DNA of 32,000 nucleotides from Candidatus Saccharimonadota bacterium (GTDB lineage Bacteria; Bacteroidota; Bacteroidia; Cytophagales; Amoebophilaceae): NCBI RefSeq assembly GCF_936981045.1, contig NZ_OW441264.1, forward strand, positions 390,001-422,000, given 5' to 3'. The translations under genes and the position numbers were made by a program. The notes under the pieces are model-generated. The model saw nothing but the letters and a program-made list of their open reading frames with translations, ran no database searches and was not told the DNA's origin. Positions 1,998 to 25,809 of the stretch are shown piece by piece (position 1 is the first letter of the stretch; each line of letters opens with the position of its first letter).

Positions 1998-2094
1998 AAT
2001 AGAAAAGGTGGCTACTAGGGCTTAATAAATAATACAAAAAAATGACGCAACTGCGGCCCTACAACAGAATATTGTTCCAACCAGGTAAACAACG

Positions 2095-2168: not shown

Positions 2169-2305
2169 CTATAAGCAACCTACTGCTCCAAAGAAACCTC
2201 GGCGATAAAGCGAACAACACTTTACAATACTACGCCTTTTTTTATAAAAAACCAGGGCCTGTGTTGTATCTTTGGATAGATTTTGATCTAGTTACGCTTG
2301 TAATA

Positions 2306-2547
2306 ACGTGAGTTCGGGATTAGATTATTTTTTCATTTGATAATCAATATAAATGAAAATTTATTAAATTTGTTTTATTAGACAGTTAAATAGGTAGTTG
2401 AATAACAAATAATTCTGGTAATCAGTTTATTATATATATTATATTTATAAAATTTAGATATAAAAACTTGTTAAATAGGTGCAAATATTAACTAAATAAT
2501 TGATATTAAATTGTTGTAAATCAGTCAAATAAATCCCGAACTCACGT
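2306..2547 (-). mobile_element. MITE (non-autonomous IS982-type element), copy 1, inverted relative to the other copies
   Basis: ACGTGAGTTCGGGATT ... AATCCCGAACTCACGT terminal inverted repeats, AT-rich non-coding interior, flanked by a 5-bp direct repeat TAATA. Confidence 0.88.
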
Positions 2548-2695
2548 TAATAGCTAAATTTGCCTATGGCATAACCATTTCATCCATCTGTTCGGTAAGG
2601 ATTATTTTTAGTTGTTTTTGTATTTTACTTATTTTTTTTAAACTTTAGGAAATACTTAACTTAGTGCTATATTTTTTACTGCTCTATTTTCAATT

Positions 2696-3373
2696 TTGCC
2701 TATGCGTTATTTTATATACTTGTTATCTTCTTGGAAGAAATCTTTAATAGCTATTGTTCCATTATGTCTATTGTGGGCTTCAACTTGCCCTTCTGAGAAA
2801 AAAGAAAGCGAAACTTTGCATCCCCGTTGGGAGGTGATTAATATTTCAGAGGATAATTTGGATAAAGATAAGTGTACCATTACCAAATGTCGTTTAGGGG
2901 CCTTGCGTTTTCATGTTACGGATCGTCAAAAATGTTTTAATTCAAACGATTCTTGTGCAGAATCTGAAAATAATATTGTAGATACGCAGGATACAGAAGA
3001 AAATAATTGGGTGTTAACGCCTAATTTTTATGGCAGCGTGACAAAGGAAAAATTTCCTAAAACTATGCAAACGGGCATGAAGTATAAGTTTAAGCCTAAC
3101 CTTAGTAAGGAATATGGTATCCCGTTCTCCTTTTTAGAGGAATGGTTGGCGGTAGACCCTATCGATTATAAAGACGTTATATTGATTATTGCTACAGGAA
3201 TAGGAGGTAAGTTAGGTGTCAGTGAACCACTAGAAAAGGCCTTAGAAGATAAAAAAGGAAAGGGTGCAATTCGAGATTATCGAATGCTAACGACTAAGGG
3301 TGCTATAATAAGACATAACCAATATGTTAAAGAAGGGAAAAAGGTCTTTACTTTTATCCATACTGCTGGGTAG
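2696..3373 (+). CDS. hypothetical exported/lipoprotein-like protein; C-terminal ~70 aa resemble the Mth938/DUF498 fold
   Basis: Hydrophobic N-terminal segment ending LLWASTC (Cys after a signal-like helix). C-terminus DVILIIATGIGGKLGVSEPLEKALEDK..YRMLTTKGAIIRHNQYVKEGKKVFTFIHTAG matches the pattern I recall for Mth938-domain proteins. TTG at 2696, ATG at 2702. Confidence 0.6.
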   Translation: MPMRYFIYLLSSWKKSLIAIVPLCLLWASTCPSEKKESETLHPRWEVINISEDNLDKDKCTITKCRLGALRFHVTDRQKCFNSNDSCAESENNIVDTQDTEENNWVLTPNFYGSVTKEKFPKTMQTGMKYKFKPNLSKEYGIPFSFLEEWLAVDPIDYKDVILIIATGIGGKLGVSEPLEKALEDKKGKGAIRDYRMLTTKGAIIRHNQYVKEGKKVFTFIHTAG

Positions 3374-3407
3374 TTGCTTTTTAGCATCTAATAAGTATAT
3401 CAGTATC

Positions 3408-3778
3408 GGGTCTTTTGTTTTAAGTGTGTAAATATATTTCGGATTATATATTTAGATAAACTAAAATACTTAAAACAATGAAAAGAAAAGAGACAGTTAA
3501 AGATGGGATAAGCAAGTCCATAGATGTACTGATAGACTCAGGTGTAGAGCTATCGACCCTATTTGATCAAGGCGGCTTACTCAAACAATTAAGGAAATGT
3601 CTTGTAGAAAAAGCATTAGCATCAGAAATGGATAACCATTTAGATTATAACAAATATGCAGGTAGTGATTCAGATAATGCTCATAATGACTTGTCTAGTA
3701 AGCAAATTATCACTGATAATGGGGTTATATCGGTTGAGGTCCCTAGAGATAGATTATCCACTTTTGAACCTGTTTTAT
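3408..3778 (+). pseudogene. IS256-family 5' fragment (IRL plus first ~100 codons of the transposase), truncated by IS6 copy 2
   Basis: Near-identical to 11475-11845 of the intact copy. The ORF at 3478 reads MKRKETVKDGISK...STFEPVL, then runs into the IS6 repeat at 3779. Confidence 0.9.
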
Positions 3779-4611
3779 GGTTCTGTCGCGTCTATAGTTT
3801 TCTTAGTATAGGTTTTTCGTTTAAGTCAAATTTTGGATATTATGCGGCCATTAAGATAGCAAAGTTCTCAAAAGTAGAAAGATGATTTTTAGCTCCTCTT
3901 ACTTGTCCTTTTTGAATCATACGAATGTTTTCTATCCCTGAAATAGTAATGGAAGCAGAATAAAAATTCTTAAAACCCAGCATAGGTTTTATCCGTTTTT
4001 TGATAAACCTATGATCTTGTTCAACTCTATTATTCAAATATTTGTTTTGCAATATTTGAATGGTATGATCTTGATCAAGATCTGTATTGATCGCGTCAAG
4101 GGCAGCTTTATTACTACCGCTTTTGTCAATTACTACTTTCTTAGGAATATTATTTTCTGTGATCGCCTTTCGAAAAAAAGAAAGCGTTGAAGACTTGTCT
4201 CTATGCTCAGATAGAAAAAAGTCAACTGTATCACCATAACGATCTACTGCTCTATATAAATAGATCCACTTCCCGTTTAGTTTAACATAGGTTTCATCCA
4301 TTCTCCAACTACTACCAATTGGTCGTTTTCTTTTTCTTACTGCTTTATCTATCAGAGGAACAAACTTAATAACCCATCTCTGTAGCGTAGAATGATCAAC
4401 TCTTGCGCCTCTCATACGCATCATCTCTTCCAAATCTCTATAGCTCAAGGAAAAACGACACTTCATGTATACAAATAACAGGATGACTTCTGATGAAGAA
4501 CAATAACCTTTAAAATATGGTAATAACTCGGGAGAAATATTAAACATAATAACTACTTTTGTAAATACCGATACTAAAATAATCATTTTTTAGAATAAAC
4601 GCGACAGAACC
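3779..4611 (-). mobile_element. IS6-family insertion sequence, copy 2, 833 bp
   Basis: Same terminal repeats and offsets as copy 1. Transposase translation identical to copies 3 and 4. Confidence 0.92.
3840..4586 (-). CDS. IS6-family DDE transposase
   Basis: 248-aa ORF identical to those at 19085 and 21680. Confidence 0.9.
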   Translation of the reverse strand: MIILVSVFTKVVIMFNISPELLPYFKGYCSSSEVILLFVYMKCRFSLSYRDLEEMMRMRGARVDHSTLQRWVIKFVPLIDKAVRKRKRPIGSSWRMDETYVKLNGKWIYLYRAVDRYGDTVDFFLSEHRDKSSTLSFFRKAITENNIPKKVVIDKSGSNKAALDAINTDLDQDHTIQILQNKYLNNRVEQDHRFIKKRIKPMLGFKNFYSASITISGIENIRMIQKGQVRGAKNHLSTFENFAILMAA

Positions 4612-4878
4612 GTATTGGATACCTTATAACTCAATATGGCTTTACTGTGCCAATCTATAATAGCTGAGAGGTAGATAAACCCAATACTGGTGCGAATATA
4701 AGTAATATCCTCACTCCAAACTTGATTCGGTTTAGGTACATGCACCTGCTTTGTTGTACCAGCGTTGACCCAATATTTATCCAACAAGTAACTATATACG
4801 AACTATGTTAAAAAACAAATCTGATCGTAGAAATTTTTATAATTATTTGGTTCATTAATCTCAAACAAGAGCGCTTTA
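4612..4878 (-). pseudogene. IS3-family orfB (integrase-core) fragment, truncated by IS6 copy 2 and separated from its upstream part by an IS110 insertion
   Basis: Minus-strand translation ..KRSCLRLMNQ.. then (after a stop) ..PKPNQVWSEDITYIRTSIGFIYLSAIIDWHSKAILSYKVSN. This is the PNQ.W..DITYI...G..YL..IID motif of IS3 OrfB. Confidence 0.75.
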
Positions 4879-5991
4879 AGATGCTCCTAAAAGTCTTCTC
4901 TTAACTGCTAAGAAGTTACTTTCAGCTTAGAAAGGTACCCATCAATATAGCAAGTATAGTCCCTAAGAATAGCAAACACTTTTCTAATCAGTTTATTAGC
5001 GACAGCAATAAGCGCCACTTTCCCAGGTTTTCTTCTGGCTTTTAATCTCTCATAAAATGTTTTACACGCCTTATTAAACCGTATAGCAGACCAAGAAGCC
5101 ATATAGAGCAAAGAACGCAGCTGGGAGTTCCCATGACGGTTGATATGCCCCTTCTTCCTTATGGAAGAGCCTGAATGCTCATAACTAGGAGCTAAGCCAA
5201 TGAACTTAGAGAACTGTTTGGCCCTTTGAAAATGCTGCCCCCCTCCAGTGGAAACAATAAGCTGCAGAGCGGTTCTATCTCCAATGCCCTTAATAGAACT
5301 AATGCGCTTATAGAGCTCATTATAGCTCTCCTGGGTGATAGAAAGCATTTGTTGCTCCAGAAGCTCTATCTGTTCTTCCAGGCAGGCTATAGTTTCCTTG
5401 AGTGTTCTTAAGGCGAAGTCATCTGCTTGAGGCAACACATTAAAAGACTCTAGCAGATTATAGAACATAATAAGTTGTTTTTTTAGCTGAACAAGAAGCT
5501 TTTTTTGTTGATTTAACCCTTGTATATTTTGGGGAAGCATTCTGTAAGGGGCAGGCTGCATCTTTTCTCCATAAAGGGCAATAAGTTAGGCATCTACCTT
5601 ATCGGTTTTGGTTATAACTAGCATCATCCGAGCAAAATGTTTGATTTGCTTGGGATTGACCATCGACACAACTATTTCATGCTCTGTAAGTATCTGCAGT
5701 AATAAAGCGCCATAGTTGTCTGTGACTTCTAAGACACAGTGATGCGTTGTTTTATCAAGTTGAGCTAAAAAGGTTTCAATTCCTTTGGGATCATTCTTAT
5801 AGGTGATAGTAGGTATCCTTTCTCTTGGGGAAAAGCTGCTACAAAGCTGCTTTTTCCTAGGTCAATGCCTATGTATTTCATAACTTATTATATATATACT
5901 ATATCAATTCATCTTTTAAACTAGCGTCGCATATACAGGCTTTAAGGCCTACCGAACTATTCAGTTTTTAAGATGAAAGATCTGAGGGCTC
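4879..5991 (-). mobile_element. IS110-family element (decayed) inserted in an IS3 element; boundaries +/- ~15 bp
   Basis: Contains an IS110-type transposase gene and a ~100-nt non-coding left end homologous to 28013-28108. IS3 sequence resumes on both sides. Confidence 0.75.
4908..5881 (-). pseudogene. IS110-family (DEDD) transposase, inactivated by a 1-nt deletion and an in-frame TAA
   Basis: N-terminus MKYIGIDLGKSSF... is homologous to the ORF at 28109, but GGATACCTACTATCACC lacks one base relative to GGATACCGTACCATCACC. ..KTDKVDA*LIALYGE carries a stop. C-terminal 217-aa ORF has IKGIGDRTALQLI...F.GLAP...SG and the LIAVANKLIR tail typical of IS110 Tnp. Confidence 0.85.
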
Positions 5992-6198: not shown

Positions 6199-8274
6199 CT
6201 AACAGGTGCCTTCACAGAGCTGTAATGCCTGGTTAGCTGCCTGTACTAATTCTTCTACGATTTTAGCATTCAAATATTTCTTACCAAGTTCAATATCTAT
6301 CGTAAGGGTTTCTTGGGCCATATATTTTACCTCGTCCAGTTGGATATAATCTTTGGCATGACGTAAATCATAAAGTCGTTCAGCAAATTTAATGCAAAGT
6401 ACGTAAAGTTGTTCTCGGTTGATGATTCGTTTGAGACGATTACCCACATAGAGTCCAGATGGCTCCATCTCTTCACGTTTATTGACTGCTACAATACTTT
6501 CTACAAAACGATAGGCTTCCACACTATAATTGGCTTTAATATAAGCAAGTGGTAAACCTGCATAACGTACTAAGCCATACAGCACACTGAAATAAACTAT
6601 CCTTGATTGGTAAGGCACCCATTCTGCTACTAATTGGGCAATACCTAACGCACGTACATAAAGTAATTGTCCTGATGCGTGCCGCCTAAAACCATAACAA
6701 CGCCGTACCAGGAAAAAAAGCTCATCTAATACAATCGTACGCACATCAGCCATCGTGCAAAAACTATTATAGGCTTGCGTTAATGTTACCATAGACGCCT
6801 TAAATTCTCTATAGGAAATAGAAACATCTGAAGGTGGTATTCTGGAAATCATTTCATCCCGTACAGCAGCTGCATTACAAGGCACCACTATAAGCATAGA
6901 TCTTTTAGGAGAAGCCGGAAATTGTAAGTAACCATAGTGGATACGAACGATTCTTTCTATGTTTCGTTTTTCTATATTGGTCCACTCTCCTTCTTCTTGC
7001 ATCACATTGTGCCAATTAAACTCACTACCTACTGTAACATCTTGATAAGCACTTTTAATTGTAGGCAAGGCTTCCTCAGACATAGCAGCATTACTAATGA
7101 CTAGAGCTATAGCAGGAAAGCACACATCTGTAGTATATCTCTCTTCGGAAGGGTCCCTTGGCTCATATTTTAAACAGGTGGTATATAATTGAATGCGTAC
7201 AAACCGATCTTTTGAAGCATCTAGGCTGGCAAGACTTAAAATAACAGGACGCAATAAACAGACCAGCTGGTTTGCATCACATATGATCTTTTGAGGCAGC
7301 TTATCACCTTTGGTCTCTATGACCAACTTTGGCATAGCGCGCGCACTACTTTCAAACTCTAGCGAAACTTCTAACCTTCGGATCAGCTCATCAAGGCTTA
7401 CTTCAATTGGTAGCAAAATGATATGATTGTCAGACTTGGCCCGTTGTTTTAGAAAAATATCCCAAATGACAAAATTCTTGGTAATGATATCTAAATCTTC
7501 TTTATAAAGCGGCCTATCATCTAAATAGGAAATAAAATTTGTGACCTCTTTCATTGTTTGATCTATAGAAGCGTACACTCCCTTTGGATTATTACGAACC
7601 GCCCCTAGGTCCGAGTATAAGCAAGACTCTGTTTGCCTTTGTTCCTGCTCTTCTCTTTGTTGTTCTTCTATTTTATTTTTTAAATAGTAGTCATGATATT
7701 TATAGCCAGCTAGCTTACGCTTATTATAAGCAATAATAAAAAAAATCATTGGGCTTAATCCCAGAAAGGATATTAAGAAACCACTTGATGCCAACAGTTG
7801 CTCCGTGCCCATGTTATAAATGACGTAAAAGAGCACTAATAATGTAAAGAAGACTAGCTTCATGCCTATATACAAGGGCAATACAAATAAGGTTACAGCC
7901 AAATGGGCTATAGATAAGGCTAACGCAAAAGCAGATGGAGGTTGAGTCAGACCTGACCAATTCCAAAGCACATTTATAGGAAGACAAAAAACTACACTCA
8001 TTAACCAACGTCGCCCAATTTTCCAGGATGGAATTTCTTTCTTAGAATCGATTGCATAACCTATAAGCGAAATAGCCGTAATAAATTGAAGTAGGTACCA
8101 GTAGATAAAGCGATCATTTATATAATCTAATACAGTAGTGCATATAACATAACACCCCATACATCCCATTATAGCATCACTTGGCTTAAGCTTAGCCAAC
8201 CTTTCTTTTGTAAAAGAAGATTTCAGCAACAACAAGATTAATATTGTAACAAAAGGTAGAATATTAAATGACAT
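6199..8274 (-). CDS. multi-pass membrane protein, paralog 1 (P1): TM region, coiled-coil linker, degenerate histidine-kinase-like core, degenerate RelA/SpoT-HD-like C-terminus (hypothetical)
   Basis: 691-aa ORF with ATG start. About six hydrophobic helices in residues 1-185. EEQQREEQEQRQ linker. Collinear homology to the 724-aa ORF at 12930 throughout. Domain calls are by-eye motif alignment (see findings). Confidence 0.85.
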   Translation of the reverse strand: MSFNILPFVTILILLLLKSSFTKERLAKLKPSDAIMGCMGCYVICTTVLDYINDRFIYWYLLQFITAISLIGYAIDSKKEIPSWKIGRRWLMSVVFCLPINVLWNWSGLTQPPSAFALALSIAHLAVTLFVLPLYIGMKLVFFTLLVLFYVIYNMGTEQLLASSGFLISFLGLSPMIFFIIAYNKRKLAGYKYHDYYLKNKIEEQQREEQEQRQTESCLYSDLGAVRNNPKGVYASIDQTMKEVTNFISYLDDRPLYKEDLDIITKNFVIWDIFLKQRAKSDNHIILLPIEVSLDELIRRLEVSLEFESSARAMPKLVIETKGDKLPQKIICDANQLVCLLRPVILSLASLDASKDRFVRIQLYTTCLKYEPRDPSEERYTTDVCFPAIALVISNAAMSEEALPTIKSAYQDVTVGSEFNWHNVMQEEGEWTNIEKRNIERIVRIHYGYLQFPASPKRSMLIVVPCNAAAVRDEMISRIPPSDVSISYREFKASMVTLTQAYNSFCTMADVRTIVLDELFFLVRRCYGFRRHASGQLLYVRALGIAQLVAEWVPYQSRIVYFSVLYGLVRYAGLPLAYIKANYSVEAYRFVESIVAVNKREEMEPSGLYVGNRLKRIINREQLYVLCIKFAERLYDLRHAKDYIQLDEVKYMAQETLTIDIELGKKYLNAKIVEELVQAANQALQLCEGTC

Positions 8275-8623: not shown

Positions 8624-9973
8624 ATGTTAGGTTTGAATTATAATCGTGGGTTAATAAGATTGGGGTTGTTTTTTTTCACATTATTAGTCACGCATCATAT
8701 AGGATTCGCAAAAGAGGAAAAAGGTAAGAAGGTGGCTATTGTATCCCCTACAATGCAAAAAAAAGCCTCTGATGTTGATCATTCTAACGCTGCCAGTAAA
8801 GCCAAGCTAAAAAGTGATCTAGAAGCAGAAAACGCGCTTAATCGAGCACGCTTGGAAAAACAGCTTTCAACTATTATTGCTCAAATTGAGCAGCTTCGTC
8901 TTAAAAAAGAACTTCAGCGCTTGAATAAGGAGATAGAGGATGACAACGCGCGAGAAGCGCATGATAAAGCTATGCTTTTGCTAAATATGGAAAGAGAAAA
9001 GGTGACCATCGAACTAGAGCTAGCAAAAGCTAGATTTATGAAGCAAATGGAGCAGTATGATACCCAGTTAATCACATTAGATAAAAAGATACAATTAGAA
9101 AAAGGGCAAACGCAACTGTTGCAAGAGACCAGCCACCGGTTGCAAGCAGAAATGGGGGCCTTGCAAGCTAAAATAGCACGAGATAACTATATCCAAAAAA
9201 AGCCTATTTACCTGAAAGACCCATTGATCAAACGAAGCAATACTTTAGTCCTCTCTGATCGATATATTCAACTAAATGGTTCCATTACACCCTGGAAAGC
9301 AAATTATATTGTAGATCAAATTCACTATTTTAACAACAAAAATAGTCAGTATCCTATATTTCTTATCATTGGTTATTCCCCAGGCGGATGGGTATCCGCA
9401 GGGTGGAATATTCTACAAGCAATAGAGCATAGTAAAGCACCTGTCTATGTGGTCGTAAAAGCATTCGCTGCTTCTATGGCCGCTTTGATTACTACATTGG
9501 CTACTAAATCTTATGCTTATCCAAATGCTGAAATCCTACATCATCACCCCGGAATAAAAAATTTTTTTGGTAGATTAAATCTAAGAGAAACAAAAGAGAT
9601 GTATGAGGACCTTAAGGAAACATGGAACCGTTTAGGGGGTAGAGTAGCCAGAAAAATGGGCATATCACTTGCAGCATTTGAGAAAAAGCTCTATGAGAAG
9701 TCTATGTATGGAGACTGGATGGAGTATGGTGACAATGCTAAAAAGCTTAAATGGGTCGATTATGTGATCAGTGGTATACAACATAGTGCGGTGAGCAGCT
9801 TACCAGATCCAACTGACTATACTTTTGAACAATTTATAAAGCAGTACGGCTTTGGTGAAGCAAAAGGAAAAGAACCATCTGAAGAGTGGTATTGCCATGC
9901 ACTAGCGCCCCACGATTTTGACTATAGCTACAGGCCTACTAATAGAAAATCTCAGATAATGGGTAAGCAATAA
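8624..9973 (+). CDS. signal-anchored ClpP-fold (S14-like) serine protease with a long N-terminal coiled coil
   Basis: Hydrophobic N-terminus (LIRLGLFFFTLLVTHHIGFA). Heptad-rich residues ~60-190. Residues ~210-385 align by eye with ClpP: IQLNGSIT...ANYIVDQI, YSPGGWVSAG (ClpP INSPGGSVTAG), AFAASMAA (GQAASMGA, catalytic Ser284), YPNAEILHHHP (LPNSRIMIHQP, His307), GDW..YGDNAKKLKWVDYVI (Asp364 region). Confidence 0.8.
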   Translation: MLGLNYNRGLIRLGLFFFTLLVTHHIGFAKEEKGKKVAIVSPTMQKKASDVDHSNAASKAKLKSDLEAENALNRARLEKQLSTIIAQIEQLRLKKELQRLNKEIEDDNAREAHDKAMLLLNMEREKVTIELELAKARFMKQMEQYDTQLITLDKKIQLEKGQTQLLQETSHRLQAEMGALQAKIARDNYIQKKPIYLKDPLIKRSNTLVLSDRYIQLNGSITPWKANYIVDQIHYFNNKNSQYPIFLIIGYSPGGWVSAGWNILQAIEHSKAPVYVVVKAFAASMAALITTLATKSYAYPNAEILHHHPGIKNFFGRLNLRETKEMYEDLKETWNRLGGRVARKMGISLAAFEKKLYEKSMYGDWMEYGDNAKKLKWVDYVISGIQHSAVSSLPDPTDYTFEQFIKQYGFGEAKGKEPSEEWYCHALAPHDFDYSYRPTNRKSQIMGKQ

Positions 9974-10386: not shown

Positions 10387-11388
10387 ACGTGAGTTCGGGA
10401 TTAGCTTGTTAAAAAATAGCTTTAAAAAGCTTCTTTGTGTTTTAAATTTGGAGATAAAAAAATACTAACCAGATTATCCAAAGGAGCCAGTTATGAATGT
10501 AGAAAAGTTAGTTGAAATATATTATGCTGTTAATGAATTTCTCATAAAGTTTATGCCGTATATGGAAAAACAACTGTTAACCAACTCTAAAAGAAAACCC
10601 ACTAGAACTTGTTCATTAACTTTGAGTGAAATAATGACTGTTCTTATTGCCTTTCATGTGATTGGTTTTAGAAATTTTAAGTCTTATTATATTCATTTAC
10701 AGCAATTTCATTCTAGTAAATTTGGAAAGTTAGTGAGCTACAATAGATTTATAGAACTGATCCAAAGAACGTTAGTTCCCTTGTACTGTTTTACACAAAG
10801 TCTTTCTAAAACAAAAACAGGTTGTTATTTTATGGATGCAACAGCCATCAAGGTTTGCCATATCAAAAGAGCCTATACGCACAGGGTTTTTAAATCGATT
10901 GCTACTAAAGGTGAAACCAGCACCGGTTGGTTTTTTGGATTAAAGTTGCACTTGATAGTCAATGGTTTAGGAGAAATTATGAATTTTCAACTGACCACAG
11001 GTAAAACTAATGATAGGCTTCCTGTAGAAAATTTATGTAAACACTTGATGGGTAAAATGTTTGCCGATAAAGGTTACATAAGCAAAGATTTATTTAAAAA
11101 ACTGATCGAGAAAGGCGTGGAACTCATTACCCAGATTAGAAAAAATATGAAAAATGCTTTTATGCCACTCTGGGATAAACTGATGCTTAGAAAACGATCT
11201 ATAATTGAAACTATTATAGATCAGCTCAAAAATATTAGCCAGATAGAACATTCCAGGCATAGAAGCATACCTAATTTTCTAGTCAATTTGATAACTGGAA
11301 TTACAGCTTATGCACTAAAAGAGAAAAAACCTTCTATAACTAATATATATATGACTGGTTCACAATACGTCTAATCCCGAACTGAGGT
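10387..11388 (+). mobile_element. IS982-family insertion sequence, intact, 1002 bp, inserted inside a MITE
   Basis: Ends ACGTGAGTTCGGGATTAG... and ...CTAATCCCGAACTGAGGT (imperfect TIR). Flanked by a duplicated TGATATT of the host MITE. Single 293-aa transposase ORF. Confidence 0.9.
10493..11374 (+). CDS. IS982-family DDE transposase
   Basis: 293 aa. The N-terminal ..EIYYAV.EF......KRKPTRTCSLTLSEIMT..IAFH...FRNFK.YY pattern and C-terminal ADKGY.S..L...L...G..L.T..RKNMK....I.E.....LKN...IEHSRHRS are typical of IS982 Tnp. Confidence 0.9.
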   Translation: MNVEKLVEIYYAVNEFLIKFMPYMEKQLLTNSKRKPTRTCSLTLSEIMTVLIAFHVIGFRNFKSYYIHLQQFHSSKFGKLVSYNRFIELIQRTLVPLYCFTQSLSKTKTGCYFMDATAIKVCHIKRAYTHRVFKSIATKGETSTGWFFGLKLHLIVNGLGEIMNFQLTTGKTNDRLPVENLCKHLMGKMFADKGYISKDLFKKLIEKGVELITQIRKNMKNAFMPLWDKLMLRKRSIIETIIDQLKNISQIEHSRHRSIPNFLVNLITGITAYALKEKKPSITNIYMTGSQYV

Positions 11389-11435
11389 TGATATTGATTA
11401 TCAAATGAAAAAATAATCTAATCCCGAACTCAGGT
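11389..11435 (+). mobile_element. MITE copy 2, right part
   Basis: TGATATTGATTATCAAATGAAAAAATAATCTAATCCCGAACTCAGGT continues the MITE. The whole split MITE is flanked by a 5-bp repeat TAAAT (10182-10186 and 11436-11440). Confidence 0.88.
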
Positions 11436-11474
11436 TAAATGATTAAGCTCAAATAGCAGATTTTTTACAAATTC

Positions 11475-12816
11475 GGGTCTTTTGTTTTAAGTGTGTAAAT
11501 ATATTTCGGGTTATATATTTAGATAAACTAAAATACTTAAAACAATGAAAAGAAAAGAGACAGTTAAAGATGGGATAAGCAAGGCCATAGATGTACTGAT
11601 AGACTCAGGTGTAGAGCTATCGACCCTATTTGATCAAGACGGCTTACTCAAACAATTAAGCAAACGTCTTGTAGAAAAAGCATTAGCATCAGAAATGGAT
11701 AACCATTTAGATTATAACAAGTATGCAGGTAGTGATTCAGATAATGCTCGTAATGACTTGTCTAGTAAGCAAATTATCACTGATAATGGGGTTATATCGG
11801 TTGAGGTCCCTAGAGATAGATCATCCACTTTTGAACCTGTTTTATTACCTAAGCGTCAAACAAGAATACCTGGTTTAGATAATAAGATCTTATCTCTATA
11901 TGCTAAAGGCATGAGCCTATCAGATATTCAGATTCAAATACAAGAGTTATATGGCGCAGAAGTTAGTGAAAGCCTGATAAGTAACATCACAGATGCTGTT
12001 ATCAAAGATGTTAAAATATGGCAAAATCGTCCCTTAGAGTCGGTTTATCCTATCGTTTTTTTTGATTGTTTTGTAGTTAAAGTTAGACAGGATAAGCGCA
12101 TAAGCAATAAATCAGTCTACGTTGCGTTAGGTATAGATAGATTGGGCATGCAAGATGTTTTAGGTCTTTGGATGAGTGAAAATGCAGGAGCTAAATTTTG
12201 GTTGGGGAATTTAACAGAACTCAAAAATCGTGGCATGCACGATATACTCATTGCGTGTACAGATAATTTGCCAGGTATGTCTGAGGCCATTACTGCTGTA
12301 CACCCGAAAACGGAACATCAGCTCTGTATTGTTCATGCCATTAGGAATAGCTTGCAATATGTTTCTTATAAACATAGAAAGGCATTAGTTGCTGATTTAA
12401 AACCAGTTTATACTGCAGTTACTGAAGAAGAAGCATTGATGGCCTTAGAAGCTTTTGCTACCAAGTGGAATCAACAATACCCACAAATAGCCAAATCTTG
12501 GTATGCTAACTGGGATAATTTGATGGTATTTTTACAATACCCTAGTGCCATACGTAGAGTGATTTACACAACAAATGCTGTTGAATCTGTAAATAGTCAA
12601 TTCCGTAGAGTTACCAAAAATAAAAGGGTATTTCCTAACGATCTAGCTGTTTTTAAAACATTGTATCTAACTATTAATTACATGACTAGAAAGTGGACCA
12701 TCCCTATTCATAATTGGAGTGAGGCTATGGCACATTTTTTAATTAAATTAGAAAATAGAATCTAATAAACCAAAAAAATAATTTACACACTTAATTGGAC
12801 AGATCCGGACAGAGCC
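11475..12816 (+). mobile_element. IS256-family insertion sequence, intact copy
   Basis: IRL GGGTCTTTTGTTTTAAGTGTGTAAAT versus the reverse complement of the right end ..ATTTACACACTTAATTGGACAG... Right terminus is tandemly doubled (GGACAGATCC GGACAGAGCC). Flanks ACAAATTC / ACAAATTA look like an 8-bp target duplication. Confidence 0.88.
11545..12765 (+). CDS. IS256-family (Mutator-type) transposase
   Basis: 406 aa. ..LLKQL.K.LVEKAL..EMD.HL.Y.KY...., PKRQTRIPG.D.KILSLYAKGMS..DI, VFFDC..VKVR, LGLW....EGAKFW...L.ELKNRG..DILIAC.D.L.G, YP....Q.CIVH..RNS, TTNA.ES.N...R are canonical IS256 family motifs. Confidence 0.92.
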   Translation: MKRKETVKDGISKAIDVLIDSGVELSTLFDQDGLLKQLSKRLVEKALASEMDNHLDYNKYAGSDSDNARNDLSSKQIITDNGVISVEVPRDRSSTFEPVLLPKRQTRIPGLDNKILSLYAKGMSLSDIQIQIQELYGAEVSESLISNITDAVIKDVKIWQNRPLESVYPIVFFDCFVVKVRQDKRISNKSVYVALGIDRLGMQDVLGLWMSENAGAKFWLGNLTELKNRGMHDILIACTDNLPGMSEAITAVHPKTEHQLCIVHAIRNSLQYVSYKHRKALVADLKPVYTAVTEEEALMALEAFATKWNQQYPQIAKSWYANWDNLMVFLQYPSAIRRVIYTTNAVESVNSQFRRVTKNKRVFPNDLAVFKTLYLTINYMTRKWTIPIHNWSEAMAHFLIKLENRI

Positions 12817-12929: not shown

Positions 12930-15104
12930 ATGTCATTCTATACACCTTTCCTCATGGCATTACCCTTTTTGCTATTGGTTCTAGTGGTGATTTTTTACCT
13001 TAAGCAAATCAAAGCTCCATTTGGGGAGCATAGTCTAAATCACAAACAATTTGCCTATGAAATTAGAGCGATTCAACAAGCTATTACACGTATCAAAAGT
13101 CGCATAAAAAAATCGTTACAATCTGTTTTTATAAAAGAAAAACTGGCCAAATTAAAACCAAGCGATGCTACAATGGGATGTACAGGGTGTTACATTATAC
13201 TTACCACCATACTAGATTACATCATTGGAGGACTGACTATTTATTGGTACATAGTTCAATTTTTTATAGGTATTTGGCTTATAGGTAATGGAATTACACG
13301 CAAAAAAACGGTTCCATCATGGAAAATTGGTCGATCTTGGCTAGTATACACCGTTTTTTGCCTTCCTGTAAATGTATTTTGGCATTGGTTTCATGTGCAA
13401 GATGCTCAATTTACACTAACTTTATCTGTTGGACATTTATCTGCAACTTTATTTGTATTGCCCCTGTATATAAGTATAAAACTCGTAGTCCTTACACTTT
13501 TAATGATCTTTTACGCAATCTATAACATAGGTATAGATCAACTGTTGATGTCAGGGGATTCTTTACTATCTCTATTGGGGTTCGGCTTAATGGTCTTTAG
13601 CATTATTATTTATAATAAACGCAAAATAGCTGCCTATACACTATATAACCGCTACTTAAAAAGTCAAATAAAATTAGCAGAAAACAAGGACCATGCGCCT
13701 ATGCAAACCAACTCCAACTTACATCCAGAAAATGCTCGTAAAAACCCAAAAGAGGCTGGACCTTGTGTAGAAAAAACCATTCAGGACGTTACTGAATTTA
13801 TGTCATATTTAGATACTAGGACTCTTTATCAGCAAGATATCCAAAGTATTATCAAAAATTTTTTCACTTTTACTACTTTTTTAAAGCAACAGGCCAGGTC
13901 TATAGACCACATACCGTTAATACCAAATGAAATTACTATAGATGCATTGATCTCTAAACTAGAGGCTACACTGGAAGCTAGGACCTCACCAGTCCCAAAA
14001 CTGGTGGTAGAAATGAAAAATAATGTTATTCCTAAAAAGATCACATGTGATGTCAATCATATGATCCAATCATTAGTCCCTATTGTTTTACGTACCGCTA
14101 ACCCAGGTAGTTCAAAAGGTGAACGTGTAAACATTCAATTACATGCTACGCACTTAAAATATGCGCAAAAAGGCAAATCGGAAATGAACTTCCCAGCTAT
14201 AGCCCTGGTGATCAGCAGCACTACTATCCCTCTAACCATATTGCCCAAAATTAAAAATTATTATGAGGATATTACAGAAGGAAGAGAGCTTAAGTGGCAC
14301 AGTGGTCAAACAAACTTAGAACGTATACAGGTTGAAAAACATGTCATAGAACGAGCAGTTCGTGCCCATTATGGTTACCTACGCTTCCCTTTTTCCCAAA
14401 AAAGGCCTATAGTGATGGTACTGCCTTATAATGTAGTACAGGTTCGAGATGCAATGATCGACAAAATACTCCCTTTAGATGTTCCTATAAACCAAAAAGA
14501 AATCGATCAATCCATGGAAGTATTTATGAGATCTTATAACCATATTTTAGAAATATGCGAGGCTCGTAAAGCTGTATTAGATGAAATACTTCTATTGATC
14601 AGAAGGTGCTATGGTTTTAGACGCCATCTATCCGGACAATTGTTGTACATCCGTGCGATAGGTATTGCACAATTAGTGACAGAATGGATACGCTTTTATC
14701 CGCAACCCATTTATGGTGTATTACTGTATGACTTAGTGCATCATGCGGATTTACCACTTGCGTATATTAAGGCCAACTATGATATGAATATTTACGCCTT
14801 TATAGAAAGTATTTTAGCAGTAAATGATCGCCAAAGCATGGAGCCATGTGGACTTTATATTGGAAATGCTCTTAAGCAAGTAATCAATCGAGAACAACTT
14901 TTTGTGCTTTGCATTAAATTGGCTGAACGACTTTATGACCTAAGGCATGCTAAAAGCTACACCCATCTAGATGCATTAAAATACATGGCTGAAGAAACCC
15001 TTACAATAGATATTGAATTAGCAAAGAAATATTTGAACACTAAAATCGTAGAAGCATTAACCAATGCAGCAGAACAAGCGCTTCAGGTCTGTGAAAAAAA
15101 ATAA
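12930..15104 (+). CDS. multi-pass membrane protein, paralog 2 (P2): same architecture as P1 with an extra N-terminal helix
   Basis: 724-aa ORF with ATG start. Shared blocks with P1 include KLAKLKPSDA.MGC.GCY, PSWKIGR.WL, LFVLPLYI, NFPAIALVIS, HYGYL.FP, RRCYGFRRH.SGQLLY.RA.GIAQLV.EW, LPLAYIKANY, INREQL.VLCIK.AERLYDLRHAK, ETLTIDIEL.KKYLN.KIVE. Confidence 0.87.
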   Translation: MSFYTPFLMALPFLLLVLVVIFYLKQIKAPFGEHSLNHKQFAYEIRAIQQAITRIKSRIKKSLQSVFIKEKLAKLKPSDATMGCTGCYIILTTILDYIIGGLTIYWYIVQFFIGIWLIGNGITRKKTVPSWKIGRSWLVYTVFCLPVNVFWHWFHVQDAQFTLTLSVGHLSATLFVLPLYISIKLVVLTLLMIFYAIYNIGIDQLLMSGDSLLSLLGFGLMVFSIIIYNKRKIAAYTLYNRYLKSQIKLAENKDHAPMQTNSNLHPENARKNPKEAGPCVEKTIQDVTEFMSYLDTRTLYQQDIQSIIKNFFTFTTFLKQQARSIDHIPLIPNEITIDALISKLEATLEARTSPVPKLVVEMKNNVIPKKITCDVNHMIQSLVPIVLRTANPGSSKGERVNIQLHATHLKYAQKGKSEMNFPAIALVISSTTIPLTILPKIKNYYEDITEGRELKWHSGQTNLERIQVEKHVIERAVRAHYGYLRFPFSQKRPIVMVLPYNVVQVRDAMIDKILPLDVPINQKEIDQSMEVFMRSYNHILEICEARKAVLDEILLLIRRCYGFRRHLSGQLLYIRAIGIAQLVTEWIRFYPQPIYGVLLYDLVHHADLPLAYIKANYDMNIYAFIESILAVNDRQSMEPCGLYIGNALKQVINREQLFVLCIKLAERLYDLRHAKSYTHLDALKYMAEETLTIDIELAKKYLNTKIVEALTNAAEQALQVCEKK

Positions 15105-19023: not shown

Positions 19024-19856
19024 GGTTCTGTCGCGTCTATAGTTTTCTTAGTATAGGTTTTTCGTTTAAGTCAAATTTTGGATATTATGCGGCCATTAAG
19101 ATAGCAAAGTTCTCAAAAGTAGAAAGATGATTTTTAGCTCCTCTTACTTGTCCTTTTTGAATCATACGAATGTTTTCTATCCCTGAAATAGTAATGGAAG
19201 CAGAATAAAAATTCTTAAAACCCAGCATAGGTTTTATCCGTTTTTTGATAAACCTATGATCTTGTTCAACTCTATTATTCAAATATTTGTTTTGCAATAT
19301 TTGAATGGTATGATCTTGATCAAGATCTGTATTGATCGCGTCAAGGGCAGCTTTATTACTACCGCTTTTGTCAATTACTACTTTCTTAGGAATATTATTT
19401 TCTGTGATCGCCTTTCGAAAAAAAGAAAGCGTTGAAGACTTGTCTCTATGCTCAGATAGAAAAAAGTCAACTGTATCACCATAACGATCTACTGCTCTAT
19501 ATAAATAGATCCACTTCCCGTTTAGTTTAACATAGGTTTCATCCATTCTCCAACTACTACCAATTGGTCGTTTTCTTTTTCTTACTGCTTTATCTATCAG
19601 AGGAACAAACTTAATAACCCATCTCTGTAGCGTAGAATGATCAACTCTTGCGCCTCTCATACGCATCATCTCTTCCAAATCTCTATAGCTCAAGGAAAAA
19701 CGACACTTCATGTATACAAATAACAGGATGACTTCTGATGAAGAACAATAACCTTTAAAATATGGTAATAACTCGGGAGAAATATTAAACATAATAACTA
19801 CTTTTGTAAATACCGATACTAAAATAATCATTTTTTAGAATAAACGCGACAGAACC
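19024..19856 (-). mobile_element. IS6-family insertion sequence, copy 3, 833 bp
   Basis: Same ends and offsets as the other copies. Confidence 0.92.
19085..19831 (-). CDS. IS6-family DDE transposase
   Basis: 248-aa ORF identical to 3840-4586 and 21680-22426. Confidence 0.9.
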   Translation of the reverse strand: MIILVSVFTKVVIMFNISPELLPYFKGYCSSSEVILLFVYMKCRFSLSYRDLEEMMRMRGARVDHSTLQRWVIKFVPLIDKAVRKRKRPIGSSWRMDETYVKLNGKWIYLYRAVDRYGDTVDFFLSEHRDKSSTLSFFRKAITENNIPKKVVIDKSGSNKAALDAINTDLDQDHTIQILQNKYLNNRVEQDHRFIKKRIKPMLGFKNFYSASITISGIENIRMIQKGQVRGAKNHLSTFENFAILMAA

Positions 19857-21654: not shown

Positions 21655-22487
21655 GGTTCTGTCGCGTTTATTCTAAAAAATGATTATTTTAGTATCGGTA
21701 TTTACAAAAGTAGTTATTATGTTTAATATTTCTCCCGAGTTATTACCATATTTTAAAGGTTATTGTTCTTCATCAGAAGTCATCCTGTTATTTGTATACA
21801 TGAAGTGTCGTTTTTCCTTGAGCTATAGAGATTTGGAAGAGATGATGCGTATGAGAGGCGCAAGAGTTGATCATTCTACGCTACAGAGATGGGTTATTAA
21901 GTTTGTTCCTCTGATAGATAAAGCAGTAAGAAAAAGAAAACGACCAATTGGTAGTAGTTGGAGAATGGATGAAACCTATGTTAAACTAAACGGGAAGTGG
22001 ATCTATTTATATAGAGCAGTAGATCGTTATGGTGATACAGTTGACTTTTTTCTATCTGAGCATAGAGACAAGTCTTCAACGCTTTCTTTTTTTCGAAAGG
22101 CGATCACAGAAAATAATATTCCTAAGAAAGTAGTAATTGACAAAAGCGGTAGTAATAAAGCTGCCCTTGACGCGATCAATACAGATCTTGATCAAGATCA
22201 TACCATTCAAATATTGCAAAACAAATATTTGAATAATAGAGTTGAACAAGATCATAGGTTTATCAAAAAACGGATAAAACCTATGCTGGGTTTTAAGAAT
22301 TTTTATTCTGCTTCCATTACTATTTCAGGGATAGAAAACATTCGTATGATTCAAAAAGGACAAGTAAGAGGAGCTAAAAATCATCTTTCTACTTTTGAGA
22401 ACTTTGCTATCTTAATGGCCGCATAATATCCAAAATTTGACTTAAACGAAAAACCTATACTAAGAAAACTATAGACGCGACAGAACC
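21655..22487 (+). mobile_element. IS6-family insertion sequence, copy 4, 833 bp (opposite orientation)
   Basis: GGTTCTGTCGCGTTTATTCT... at 21655 and ...ATAGACGCGACAGAACC ending 22487. Confidence 0.92.
21680..22426 (+). CDS. IS6-family DDE transposase
   Basis: 248-aa ORF identical to copies 2 and 3. Confidence 0.9.
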   Translation: MIILVSVFTKVVIMFNISPELLPYFKGYCSSSEVILLFVYMKCRFSLSYRDLEEMMRMRGARVDHSTLQRWVIKFVPLIDKAVRKRKRPIGSSWRMDETYVKLNGKWIYLYRAVDRYGDTVDFFLSEHRDKSSTLSFFRKAITENNIPKKVVIDKSGSNKAALDAINTDLDQDHTIQILQNKYLNNRVEQDHRFIKKRIKPMLGFKNFYSASITISGIENIRMIQKGQVRGAKNHLSTFENFAILMAA

Positions 22488-24010: not shown

Positions 24011-24382
24011 TTGAATAGGATGTTTTTTAGAATTATAAAGATGCTATGTAAACTATTTGGCATAGCTTGTATAGTAGAGATGGTAAGAAAAAGGATGGGT
24101 ATGTTGGTCTGTGCACTGCAGCATAATCTTAAAGCACAAGCCAAGAAAATTGCTCAAATGTTTTTACTGGGTTCCCTAGCTTTTATATTACTTGGTTTAG
24201 GGTTGCAGTTCTTATTATTTGGATTAGCTTGCTGGCTGAATGCAGTACTCTGTAATACTTATCTTGGTTTTTTGCTTGTTGCAATGGGTTGTTTTTTAAT
24301 GGTTATACTTATCGTACTTATGCTGCGCAGGAAAATCAATAACCAAGAAGTGGAACAGGGCCACATTACGGATGGTGAGTAG
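24011..24382 (+). CDS. small membrane protein, hypothetical (two long hydrophobic helices; YqjE/DUF1469-like topology)
   Basis: 123-aa ORF (TTG at 24011; ATGs at 24020 and 24041). FLLGSLAFILLGLGLQFLLFGLACWL and LGFLLVAMGCFLMVILIVLML helices followed by a basic RRK. Confidence 0.5.
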   Translation: MNRMFFRIIKMLCKLFGIACIVEMVRKRMGMLVCALQHNLKAQAKKIAQMFLLGSLAFILLGLGLQFLLFGLACWLNAVLCNTYLGFLLVAMGCFLMVILIVLMLRRKINNQEVEQGHITDGE

Positions 24383-24477: not shown

Positions 24478-25809
24478 GGGTCTTTTGTTTTAAGTGTGTA
24501 AATATTTTTTAGGATTTATCTTTACCTAAATCATAACACTTAAAACAATGAAAAAAAAAGAGACAGTTAAAGATGGGATAAGCAAGGCCATAGATGTACT
24601 GATAGAATCAGGTGTAGACCTTTCCAGACTTTTTGGTCAAGACGGCTTACTCAAACAATTAAGTAAGCGTCTTGTAGAAAAAGCATTACAGTCAGAAATG
24701 GATGACCATTTAGGTTATAATAAGTATGCACGTAGTGATTCAGAGAATGCACGTAATAGATTATCCAGTAAGCAAGTTATTACTGATAATGGCGTTATAT
24801 CGGTTGAAGTACCCAAAGATAGAGCATCGACTTTTGAACCTATTTTATTGCCTAATCGTCAAACAAGAATTCCTGGTTTGGATGATAAGATCTTATCTTT
24901 ATATGCTAAAGGTATGAGTCTGTCAGATATTCAGATTCAAATACAGGAATTATATGGCGCAGAAGTAAGTGAAAGCCTGATAAGTAACATCACAGACTCT
25001 ATTATTGAAGATGTTAAGATATGGCAAAATCATCCCTTAGAATCAGTCTATTCTATTGTTTTTTTTGATTGCTTTGTAGTTAAAGTTAGACAAGATAAGC
25101 GCATCATCAACAAGGCAGTCTATGTCGCTTTAGGTATAGATAGATCTAGCATAAAGGATGTTTTAGGGCTTTGGATGAGTGAAAATGAAGGGGCTAAATT
25201 TTGGTTAGGCAATTTAACAGAACTCAAAAATCGGGGTATGAACGATGTGCTCATTGCATGTACAGATAATTTGTCAGGCATGTCTGAGGCCATTTCTGCT
25301 GTATACCCAAAAACGGAACATCAGCTCTGTATTGTTCATGCAATTAGGGGTAGTTTGCAGTATGTTTCTTATAAACATAGAAAGGTATTAGTTGCTAATT
25401 TAAAACCAATTTATACAGCAGTTACCGAGCAAGAAGCATTGATGACCTTAGAAGCTTTTGCTACTAAGTGGAATCAACAATACCCACAAATAGCCCAATC
25501 TTGGTATGCTAACTGGGATGATCTGATGGTATTTTTACAGTACCCTAATGCCATACGTAAGGTCATTTACACAACAAATGTTTGGAATCTGTAAATAGCC
25601 AATTTCGTAGAGTTACCAAAAATAAAAGAGTGTTCCCTAACGATCCAGCTATTTTTAAAACATTATATCTAACTATTAACTACATGACTAGAAAATGGAC
25701 CACCTCTATTCATAACTGGAGCGAGGCTATGGCACATTTTTTAATTAAATTTGAAAACAGAATTGAATAAAACCAAAAAAATAATTTACACACTTAAGTG
25801 GACAGAGCC
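24478..25809 (+). mobile_element. IS256-family insertion sequence, second subfamily copy, 1332 bp, transposase frameshifted
   Basis: Same IRL. Right end ATTTACACACTTAAGTGGACAGAGCC. Flanks CAGCTGTT / GATCTGTT (6/8 identical) may be a decayed 8-bp duplication. Confidence 0.88.
24548..25770 (+). pseudogene. IS256-family transposase with a frameshift near codon 345
   Basis: ORFs 24548-25594 and 25582-25770 together are collinear with the intact 406-aa protein. AATGCTGTTGAATCT in the intact copy is AATGTTTGGAATCT here (one base fewer), so TTNAVESVN becomes TTNVWNL*. Confidence 0.88.

What the first reader, a model, noticed from the sequence alone, without database searches (positions are those of the whole stretch)
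14592..15104. C-terminal domain of both paralogs resembles a RelA/SpoT HD hydrolase with all catalytic residues replaced
From memory of RSH N-terminal hydrolase domains (H.GQ.R.SGEPY..HP..VA.IL, AALLHDV.EDT, VKLADRLHNMRTL, ETL.IYAPLA), the paralog C-termini align block for block. The blocks are YGFRRH.SGQLLY(V/I)RA.GIAQLV.EW, then (V/L)LY(G/D)LV(R/H)(Y/H)A.LPLAYIKANY, then VLCIK(F/L)AERLYDLRHAK, then ETLTIDIEL.KKYL. The metal-binding His-Pro is V/I-Arg. The HD dyad is YG in P1 and YD in P2. The ED pair is RY or HH. The ADRLHN Asp is Glu. That would make this a pseudo-hydrolase fold fused to a membrane sensor, which I have not seen described. The P1 equivalent is 6199-6717.
Basis: inference. 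Interest (0 to 1): 0.72.

Follow-up and report, generated by a model that had tools for sequence, protein, structure and literature searches.

The report
Remodelled alarmone-hydrolase domain on membrane sensors
Two paralogous membrane proteins of the insect and spider symbiont Cardinium end in a domain descended from the enzyme that degrades the bacterial alarm nucleotide (p)ppGpp, but its metal-binding and catalytic residues have been swapped for a new, strictly conserved set, so it probably no longer works by the usual mechanism and does some other job.

Summary
The window comes from Cardinium endosymbiont of Oedothorax gibbosus. The C-termini of P2 (12930-15104, +) and P1 (6199-8274, -) are homologous to the RelA/SpoT (RSH, Pfam HD_4) hydrolase domain. 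Evidence: profile against PDB gives B. subtilis Rel at E 3.6e-6, hhalign against canonical Rel HD gives 94.6% probability at E 7e-8, and 22 of 26 orthologues hit HD_4.

The canonical site is replaced: H53->R, H77->Y, D78->D/G, E81/D82->HH/RY, D144->E, H147->Y, N148->D.

- A histidine-kinase-like but motif-less DHp/CA module lies between the membrane block and the HD-like domain (predicted fold only).
- P1 and P2 are truncated members of an Amoebophilaceae family: sodium:solute-symporter domain, TM block, HK-like module, HD_4. Other members, some in Cardinium, keep an intact active site.
- The substitutions are identical in 102 unique domains. The domain is the most constrained part of the protein (dN/dS about 0.08).

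So this is a remodelled, selected site, not decay. The most likely role is a ligand-binding or regulatory pseudo-hydrolase. A neo-enzyme is not excluded.

Databases already label some orthologues "HD domain-containing", and earlier surveys counted the relatives as SpoT/rickSpo. I judge it a new variant of a known kind.

The parts
12930..15104 (+). P2: 724-aa membrane protein (TM block, HK-like module, remodelled RSH HD-like domain)
   Evidence: ORF and translation. 100% identical to a hypothetical protein of Cardinium endosymbiont of Oedothorax gibbosus.
12939..13634 (+). P2 membrane region (residues ~4-235): N-terminal TM helix plus a block of about 6 TM helices
   Evidence: AF2 helices 4-27, 79-100, 104-122, 130-155, 159-176, 179-200 and 210-255. 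Hydropathy peaks. Homologous to the post-SSF TM block of the long family members.
13635..14465 (+). P2 histidine-kinase-like module (residues ~236-512): DHp-like helices plus a CA-like alpha/beta domain. No H-box His and no N/G1/G2 ATP motifs.
   Evidence: Foldseek against PDB: RetS 6dk7 E 6e-7, then ZraS, HK853, CckA. pLDDT is about 80-93 in model 2. No Pfam HisKA or HATPase_c hit at E<=1. No HK found by sequence in PDB.
14493..15101 (+). P2 remodelled RSH (HD_4) hydrolase-like domain, residues ~522-724. This contains the reported feature at 14592-15104.
   Evidence: for homology. for the residue table. All-helical with pLDDT 83-95. dN/dS 0.075.
6199..8274 (-). P1: 691-aa paralogue with the same architecture
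   Evidence: 53% identity to P2. Orthologues P0015-P0024.
6202..6813 (-). P1 remodelled RSH hydrolase-like domain (residues ~488-691)
   Evidence: Pfam HD_4 at residues 523-659, E 1.2e-3. Signature H..SGQ..Y.R / YG..RY / KFAERLYDLRH. dN/dS 0.087.
8624..9973 (+). Secreted ClpP-fold protein (signal peptide, coiled coil, CLP_protease domain), conserved between the two paralogues. Possible partner; function not tested.
   Evidence: Pfam CLP_protease E 4.6e-20. Sequence. Same P1 / ClpP-like / P2 / epimerase arrangement in Cardinium CP101107 and VMBH01.
10493..12765 (+). Two IS transposase genes (DDE_Tnp_1_3 and Mutator family) inserted between the ClpP-like gene and P2. Not part of the system.
   Evidence: Absent from the syntenic locus L002.

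Best explanation
P1 and P2 are short, symporter-less members of a family confined to the Amoebophilaceae.

The full-length family architecture is:
- a sodium:solute-symporter (SSF/SLC5) domain,
- a second block of about 6 TM helices,
- a dimerisation/CA module with a histidine-kinase fold but no phospho-acceptor His and no ATP-binding motifs,
- a C-terminal RelA/SpoT-type (HD_4) alarmone hydrolase domain.

Some members, including some in Cardinium, keep a canonical hydrolase site. They are most simply read as membrane-anchored, solute-controlled (p)ppGpp hydrolases.

P1 and P2 belong to a Cardinium-expanded clade in which the Mn2+ ligands (H53, H77, D144), the ED catalytic pair and the substrate contacts R44 and N148 were replaced together. 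The new residues were then frozen.

Shown: the homology, the substitutions, the architecture, the family context and the strong purifying selection.

Inferred: the domain no longer hydrolyses (p)ppGpp by the canonical mechanism. It serves as a ligand-binding or regulatory pseudo-enzyme module of a dimeric membrane signalling protein. It may bind an alarmone or another nucleotide, or modulate the intact paralogues through the shared HK-like dimer interface.
For: Homology to the RSH hydrolase domain.

Residue replacements.

Frozen substitutions in 102 unique remodelled domains:
- H53->R 102/102
- H77->Y 102/102
- D144->E 102/102
- N148->D 102/102
- R44->H 101/102
- H147->Y 100/102
- The D78, E81 and D82 equivalents vary.
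- 13 of the 23 positions that are >=97% conserved are active-site equivalents.

Constraint: the HD-like domain is the best conserved part of the protein, with column identity 0.81 and 33% invariant columns, against 11-12% in the TM and HK-like parts. Its dN/dS is 0.075 (P2) and 0.087 (P1), against 0.17-0.56 for the other regions.

Family context:
- The representative search gave 147 hits. Many are proteins of 1110-1250 aa that align from the TM block to the C-terminus.
- Pfam shows SSF plus HD_4 in these long forms.
- Intact-site members come from Amoebophilaceae, Amoebophilus and Cardinium.
- 61 genomic loci carry the remodelled motif. All are in Cardinium except one Amoebophilaceae MAG. Most encode ORFs of about 1180-1200 aa.

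HK-like fold.

Alarmone metabolism is plausible in the genus: a RelA_SpoT synthetase-domain ORF end lies in Cardinium hertigii cEhis1 (Pfam E 1.7e-12).

Precedent for a retained dead RSH HD acting as a regulator: the RelA pseudo-hydrolase domain (PMC8012599; title and abstract only were read).
Against: - No biochemical data exist.
- The frozen set H566, E666, D670, H673 plus two Tyr and one Arg could equally build a new metal or catalytic centre.
- D78 is retained in P2, and E is a possible metal ligand.
- The HK-like assignment rests on a predicted structure only (TM-score normalised by target length 0.4-0.5). There is no sequence signal.
- I could not check whether this particular genome encodes an alarmone synthetase or an intact paralogue.
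Confidence: 0.6

Rival explanations
1. Neo-enzyme. The remodelled pocket is a new active site. It could be a relocated metal centre using H566, E666, D670 and H673, or a metal-independent phosphohydrolase or transferase using Arg and Tyr. It would act on a different substrate, so the domain is not 'pseudo' at all.
For: The replacement residues are invariant across 102 domains. They make up most of the best conserved positions. dN/dS is about 0.08. E666, D670 and H673 are spaced i, i+4, i+7 on the helix that carries D144 in Rel (read from the alignments). K141, R145 and R150 are retained.
Against: The positions equivalent to D78, E81 and D82, which activate water in Rel according to established RelSeq structural work, vary freely as D/E/G, R/H/V and Y/H/R. 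That is unexpected for an enzyme using the same pocket. I know of no precedent for such a site in HD-superfamily enzymes.
Confidence: 0.25
2. Regulatory subunit. P1 and P2 heterodimerise through the DHp-like helices with intact, SSF-bearing paralogues and tune their hydrolase activity. The remodelled HD domain acts as the allosteric partner.
For: Intact and remodelled paralogues coexist in Cardinium and can be adjacent (L037; P0070 and P0107). All share the same TM block and HK-like module. HK DHp domains are obligate dimer interfaces (established knowledge).
Against: No intact paralogue has been shown in this genome. Remodelled copies far outnumber intact ones (115 against 62 domains in my sample, and the intact ones are mostly not from Cardinium). 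No interaction data exist.
Confidence: 0.15
3. Decaying relic. The hydrolase domain lost its function after genome reduction and is drifting, retained only as a structural appendage.
For: Cardinium genomes are reduced and full of IS elements. Some family copies are frameshifted or truncated.
Against: The domain is the most constrained part of both proteins. The same substitutions are fixed in 102 domains that are down to about 35% identical overall.
Confidence: 0.03
4. Chance resemblance. The region is an unrelated helical domain that happens to share short motifs with RSH hydrolases.
For: P1 and P2 alone fall below Pfam's gathering score (19 bits against 27.2).
Against: Profile E-values of 3.6e-6 (PDB) and 7e-8 (hhalign). 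An unbroken series of full-length homologues leads to members that hit HD_4 at E 1e-28.
Confidence: 0.02

Closest known systems
Small alarmone hydrolases of the RSH superfamily (Pfam HD_4; Mesh1, PbcSpo, and 'rickSpo' as assigned to Amoebophilus by Atkinson et al. 2011, PMC3153485)
   Same: Homologous domain, aligned motif for motif over about 150 residues. The intact paralogues of the same family carry the full R-SGE-H / HD-ED / DRxHN-RT signature.
   Different: In P1 and P2 the Mn2+ ligands and the ED pair are replaced. The domain is not free-standing: it sits at the C-terminus of a multi-pass membrane protein, after an HK-like module.
Pseudo-hydrolase domain of E. coli-type RelA
   Same: An RSH HD domain that has lost the HD/ED catalytic residues but is retained, and is described as a switch for the neighbouring activity (PMC8012599; PMC3153485 writes it as RelA[hS]).
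   Different: Independent origin. RelA's domain is coupled to a synthetase domain on the ribosome. Here there is no synthetase domain, the context is membrane/HK-like, and the substitution set differs and is strictly conserved.
SLC5/STAC sensor histidine kinases (CbrA, CrbS; PMC9100948, PMC5715377)
   Same: The long paralogues join an SSF/SLC5 symporter-like domain to a histidine-kinase-type cytoplasmic module, which suggests transport-coupled sensing.
   Different: No STAC, HisKA or HATPase_c signature. There is an extra block of about 6 TM helices. The output is an HD_4 domain rather than phosphotransfer. P1 and P2 lack the SSF domain altogether.
Pseudo-histidine kinases RetS and DivL
   Same: They are among the best structural matches of the middle module: RetS 6dk7/6dk8 at E 6e-7, and DivL 4q20 is also listed. 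These are HK folds that signal without canonical autophosphorylation (established knowledge).
   Different: There is no detectable sequence similarity. RetS and DivL retain more of the ATP-binding motifs. They are not fused to an HD domain.

Membership tests
RSH superfamily hydrolase domain (Pfam HD_4, PF13328) | Significant profile match across the domain | tested here: met
   P1 and P2 alone are sub-threshold (19 bits against 27.2). At family level the match is clear: 22 of 26 members hit, best E 3.5e-7. Paralogue P0186 from the same genome scores 27.5 bits. Profile against PDB Rel gives E 3.6e-6. hhalign gives 94.6% probability at E 7e-8.
RSH superfamily hydrolase domain (active (p)ppGpp hydrolase) | Mn2+ ligands H53, H77, D78, D144 (RelSeq numbering) | tested here: not met
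   R575, Y600, D601 (G in P1), E666. The same set is found in 102 of 102 remodelled domains for H53, H77 and D144.
RSH superfamily hydrolase domain (active (p)ppGpp hydrolase) | Catalytic E81-D82 pair and substrate contacts R44, N148, T151 | tested here: not met
   E81-D82 is HH in P2 and RY in P1. R44->H566, N148->D670, T151->H673.
RSH superfamily hydrolase domain | All-helical HD fold superposable on Rel or Mesh1 | tested here: inconclusive
Sensor histidine kinase (HisKA + HATPase_c) | DHp plus CA fold | tested here: met
   Foldseek: RetS E 6e-7, then ZraS, HK853, CckA and CusS. About 230 aligned columns. TM-score normalised by target length 0.40-0.49. This rests on a predicted structure only.
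Sensor histidine kinase (HisKA + HATPase_c) | Phospho-acceptor His (H-box) and N/G1/G2 ATP-binding motifs, detectable by sequence profile | tested here: not met
   No HisKA or HATPase_c hit at E<=1 for P1 or P2, nor at E<=0.01 for 8 long members. No HK found by phmmer in PDB. By eye, 'ISYLDxRPL' sits where the H-box would be, and the N-box Asn is Pro. The only invariant residues in this module are AHYG and the P of VLP.
SLC5/STAC-type transporter-sensor fusions | N-terminal SSF (PF00474) domain | tested here: not met
   No SSF hit in P1 or P2. SSF is present in long paralogues P0028, P0029, P0034, P0042, P0073, P0086 and P0089 and in Cardinium ORFs of about 1180-1200 aa.
Alarmone signalling pathway in the host genome | A (p)ppGpp synthetase (RelA_SpoT domain) encoded in the same organism | not testable with these tools
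   Only 32 kb of this genome was available. A synthetase-domain ORF end was seen in another strain, cEhis1 (L018). Amoebophilus has a Rel (PMC3153485, supplement).

The most novel reading that the evidence does not exclude
The frozen H/R/Y/E/Y/D/H pocket is a new functional site built inside an alarmone-hydrolase fold. It is either a receptor that turns the enzyme into a membrane-bound alarmone or nucleotide sensor, or a new catalytic centre. Its expansion to more than ten copies in genomes of about 1.1 Mb would make it a central way for Cardinium to couple host-derived solute supply to its own growth control. That would also bear on the old puzzle of why obligate intracellular bacteria (Rickettsia, Orientia, Amoebophilus, Cardinium) hoard SpoT-like paralogues.
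Probability: 0.3. Interest if true: 0.75.

Novelty: new variant of a known kind. Interest (0 to 1): 0.6.

Why it matters
RSH enzymes are the universal controllers of the bacterial stringent response. The only well-studied dead hydrolase domain in this superfamily is that of RelA.

Here a second, independent lineage has rewritten the same active site in a coordinated way. It then kept that site under stronger selection than the rest of the protein and multiplied it in a reduced symbiont genome. It sits in a membrane architecture (transporter-like domain, pseudo-kinase, hydrolase) that the RSH surveys I could read do not describe.

If the intact members are solute-gated (p)ppGpp hydrolases, and the remodelled ones are sensors or regulators, this would be a direct link between nutrient import and alarmone signalling in intracellular bacteria. 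It is also a natural experiment in how an enzyme becomes a pseudo-enzyme, or a new enzyme.

Tried and rejected
1. Full-length AF2 model from the 26-sequence alignment. The HD-like region was unreliable (pLDDT below 50 over residues 513-590). It was replaced by a model of residues 280-724 built on an alignment that includes intact relatives (pLDDT 78.6).

3. I suspected that P0198 and P0199, the best-scoring long RSHs, were Cardinium's own Rel. The neighbourhood and the nearest relatives (Izemoplasmatales) show they are not.

4. NCBIfam gave nothing useful, only a weak PRK09776/DgcE match to the TM block at E 1.8e-3. This is a possible MASE1-like lead that I did not pursue.

5. Literature searches for SSF-hydrolase fusions, for Cardinium with ppGpp, and for Cardinium with stringent response found no description of this architecture or of the catalytic loss.

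6. IS-mediated truncation as the origin of the short forms was rejected. Orthologues in at least ten Cardinium strains have the same N-termini and the same synteny. The two IS elements upstream of P2 are a later insertion.

7. Sequence search of the middle module against PDB found no kinase.
Full report
**What is there.** The window has about 35% G+C. It comes from Cardinium endosymbiont of Oedothorax gibbosus: P2 is 100% identical to a hypothetical protein of that genome. P2 (12930-15104, +, 724 aa) and P1 (6199-8274, -, 691 aa) are intact ORFs, 53% identical over 672 residues. The quoted sequence blocks are all present.

**Is the resemblance real?** Yes.
- Pfam HD_4, the RSH hydrolase model, matches both proteins end to end, but below the gathering score (E about 1e-3, 19 bits against 27.2).
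- 22 of 26 orthologues and paralogues match HD_4, best E 3.5e-7.
- A third paralogue from the same genome, P0186, just passes the cut-off.
- phmmer of the P2 C-terminus against PDB finds B. subtilis Rel at E 6e-4.
- A profile of 13 Cardinium C-termini finds B. subtilis Rel at E 3.6e-6 and RelSeq 1vj7 at E 2.6e-4.
- hhalign of the Cardinium-only profile against an alignment of canonical Rel HD domains gives 94.6% probability, E 7e-8, 132 columns.
- A profile search of 1.8 billion representatives links P1 and P2, through an unbroken series of full-length relatives, to proteins that hit HD_4 at E 1e-19 to 1e-28.

**The substitutions.** In RelSeq / B. subtilis Rel numbering, read from the alignments and tabulated:
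- R44->H566
- E48->Q570
- H53->R575
- P54->A576
- H77->Y600
- D78->D in P2, G in P1
- E81/D82->HH in P2, RY in P1
- D144->E666
- H147->Y669
- N148->D670
- T151->H673
- K141, R145 and R150 are kept.

By established structural work on RelSeq, H53, H77, D78 and D144 bind Mn2+, and E81/D82 are required for hydrolysis. The canonical mechanism is therefore not available. His-Pro aligns to Arg-Ala. 'All residues replaced' overlooks D78 in P2 and the conservative D->E change.

- An AF2 model of residues 280-724, built on an alignment that mixes remodelled and intact relatives, reaches pLDDT 78.6 and pTM 0.71.
- Its first half matches histidine-kinase DHp+CA structures in Foldseek: RetS E 6e-7, then ZraS, HK853, CckA and CusS.
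- No sequence method sees a kinase.
- In the family alignment there is no conserved His at the H-box position ('ISYLDxRPL' in the Cardinium clade) and no N/G1/G2 motifs. Only an AHYG motif and the terminal VLP strand are conserved.
- I therefore read the middle part as a kinase-like dimerisation/regulatory module, on predicted-structure evidence only.
- The first ~235 residues are multi-pass membrane helices.

**Family context.**
- The representative search returned 147 relatives. Many are 1110-1250 aa and align with P2 from the TM block to the C-terminus.
- These long forms carry an N-terminal sodium:solute symporter domain (Pfam SSF).
- Named members come from Cardinium hertigii ('PutP' / 'sodium:solute symporter family transporter' / 'HD domain-containing protein'), Amoebophilaceae MAGs and Amoebophilus sp..
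- The family splits cleanly in two. 62 domains carry the intact R-SGE-H / HD-ED / DRxHN-RT signature. 115 domains (102 unique) carry the remodelled one.
- Intact members also exist in Cardinium: P0070, P0107, and an ORF in Cardinium sp. TP that lies tail to tail with a remodelled 1204-aa member.
- A scan of one genome per species found 61 loci with the remodelled motif. All are in Cardinium except one Amoebophilaceae MAG. The 1.16-Mb genome from Nabis limbatus has 14 of them.
- Most of these loci are intact ORFs of about 1180-1200 aa. The short forms come in three orthologous types (P1, P2, P3).
- The short forms are not recent IS truncations. Their N-termini and their synteny (P1 divergent from a secreted ClpP-fold gene, followed by P2 and an epimerase gene) are conserved in other strains. 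The two IS elements at 10493-12765 are a later insertion.

**Dead or remodelled?**
- Within the 26 close homologues, the HD-like domain is the best conserved region. Column identity is 0.81 and 33% of columns are invariant, against 11-12% in the TM and HK-like parts.
- Against the orthologues in Cardinium CP101107, dN/dS is 0.075 (P2) and 0.087 (P1) for this domain. It is 0.17-0.56 elsewhere.
- Across 102 unique remodelled domains, which share as little as about 35% overall identity with P2, the new residues at the H53, H77, D144 and N148 positions are 100% fixed. Those at R44 and H147 are at least 98% fixed. The D78, E81 and D82 equivalents vary.
- 13 of the 23 positions that are >=97% conserved are active-site equivalents.
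- This is the pattern of a site that was rebuilt once and has been used ever since, not of decay.

**How it most likely works.**
- Shown: the homology, the loss of the canonical ligands, the architecture, the family context and the selection.
- Inferred: the ancestral long, intact proteins are membrane-anchored alarmone hydrolases. Their activity would be gated by the transporter-like domain through the kinase-like dimer.
- Inferred: in the remodelled clade, which includes P1 and P2, the domain acts as a ligand-binding or regulatory pseudo-enzyme. This is comparable in principle to the RelA pseudo-hydrolase switch (PMC8012599). It may sense an alarmone or nucleotide, or modulate intact paralogues.
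- Alarmone metabolism in the genus is plausible. The end of a RelA_SpoT synthetase-domain ORF lies upstream of a family member in strain cEhis1. Amoebophilus has a Rel (PMC3153485, supplement).
- The main rival is a neo-enzyme with a relocated centre. E666, D670 and H673 are spaced i, i+4, i+7 on one helix, with H566 as a possible fourth ligand. I cannot separate the two readings in silico.

**Comparison with what is known.**
- The domain is a member of the RSH HD_4 family by descent, but it fails the tests for an active hydrolase.
- The middle module has a histidine-kinase fold but fails the kinase motif tests.
- P1 and P2 lack the SSF domain that their long paralogues share with SLC5/STAC kinases such as CbrA and CrbS (PMC9100948).
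- Databases already call several orthologues 'HD domain-containing protein'.
- Atkinson et al. 2011 counted 14 'rickSpo[H]' in Amoebophilus (PMC3153485). Brown et al. 2018 list a 'spoT / sodium glucose cotransporter' orthogroup with 18 copies in Amoebophilus and 2-7 in Cardinium (PMC6232779).
- None of the papers I could search mentions the catalytic loss, the frozen replacement set, the kinase-like module or the short forms.

**Verdict.** It is a new variant of a known kind, of moderate to high interest (0.6).

**Limits.**
- There is no structural superposition of the HD part.
- No whole-genome check was possible for this strain.
- No biochemistry exists.

Noticed in passing
window 8624-9973 (+): A 449-aa protein with a signal peptide, a long coiled coil and a ClpP-fold domain. 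The AASM Ser and the HHHP His appear to be present. It sits between the two paralogues here and in other Cardinium genomes (L002, L003), so it may be a functional partner.
   Followed up: partly
window 345-1091(-), 3840-4586(-), 19085-19831(-), 21680-22426(+); 11545-12765(+), 24548-25594(+), 3478-3885(+); 10493-11374(+), 28444-29469(-), 30556-31149(+); 4908-5561(-): The window is saturated with IS elements. There are four 248-aa ORFs; the two I scanned are IS240/IS6-type transposases with identical Pfam scores. There are also Mutator/IS256-type copies and a fragment, DDE_Tnp_1 types and an IS110-family fragment. Two of these split the ClpP-like gene from P2, relative to the arrangement in Cardinium CP101107.
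   Followed up: partly
L018:2-136 (Cardinium hertigii cEhis1, NZ_JBOZWY010000002.1): C-terminal end of an ORF with a RelA_SpoT synthetase domain (Pfam PF04607, E 1.7e-12). It stops right after the domain, so it looks like a small alarmone synthetase. It lies 1.4 kb upstream of a 1178-aa remodelled family member. The rest of the gene is outside the fetched locus.
   Followed up: partly
L037:5465-8062 (-) (Candidatus Cardinium sp. TP): A family member with a fully intact hydrolase signature (RESGDPYYTHP / LLHDTVEDT / KLADRLHNLRT; HD_4 E 9e-21). It lies tail to tail with a 1204-aa remodelled paralogue (1549-5163, +). Intact and remodelled copies therefore coexist in one Cardinium genome.
   Followed up: yes
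L004-L064 (genome scan): The remodelled family is strongly expanded. There are 61 loci across about 8 Cardinium genomes plus one Amoebophilaceae MAG, with 14 in the 1.16-Mb Cardinium of Nabis limbatus. Several copies are frameshifted or truncated (L024, L039, L046, L050, L058).
   Followed up: partly
window 31201-31524 (+) and 24011-24382 (+): A 107-aa ORF with a YhcG_C PD-(D/E)XK nuclease domain (the DUF1016 type, noted on Rickettsia mobile elements in PMC4316617), and a 123-aa holin-like ORF (Phage_holin_3_6). Both look like remnants of mobile elements.
   Followed up: no
window 12930-13120 (+), P2 residues 1-63: P2-type proteins carry an extra N-terminal TM helix and an amphipathic helix that P1-type proteins lack. 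In long paralogues this stretch aligns with the segment just after the SSF domain, so it may be a remnant of the lost transporter domain.
   Followed up: no
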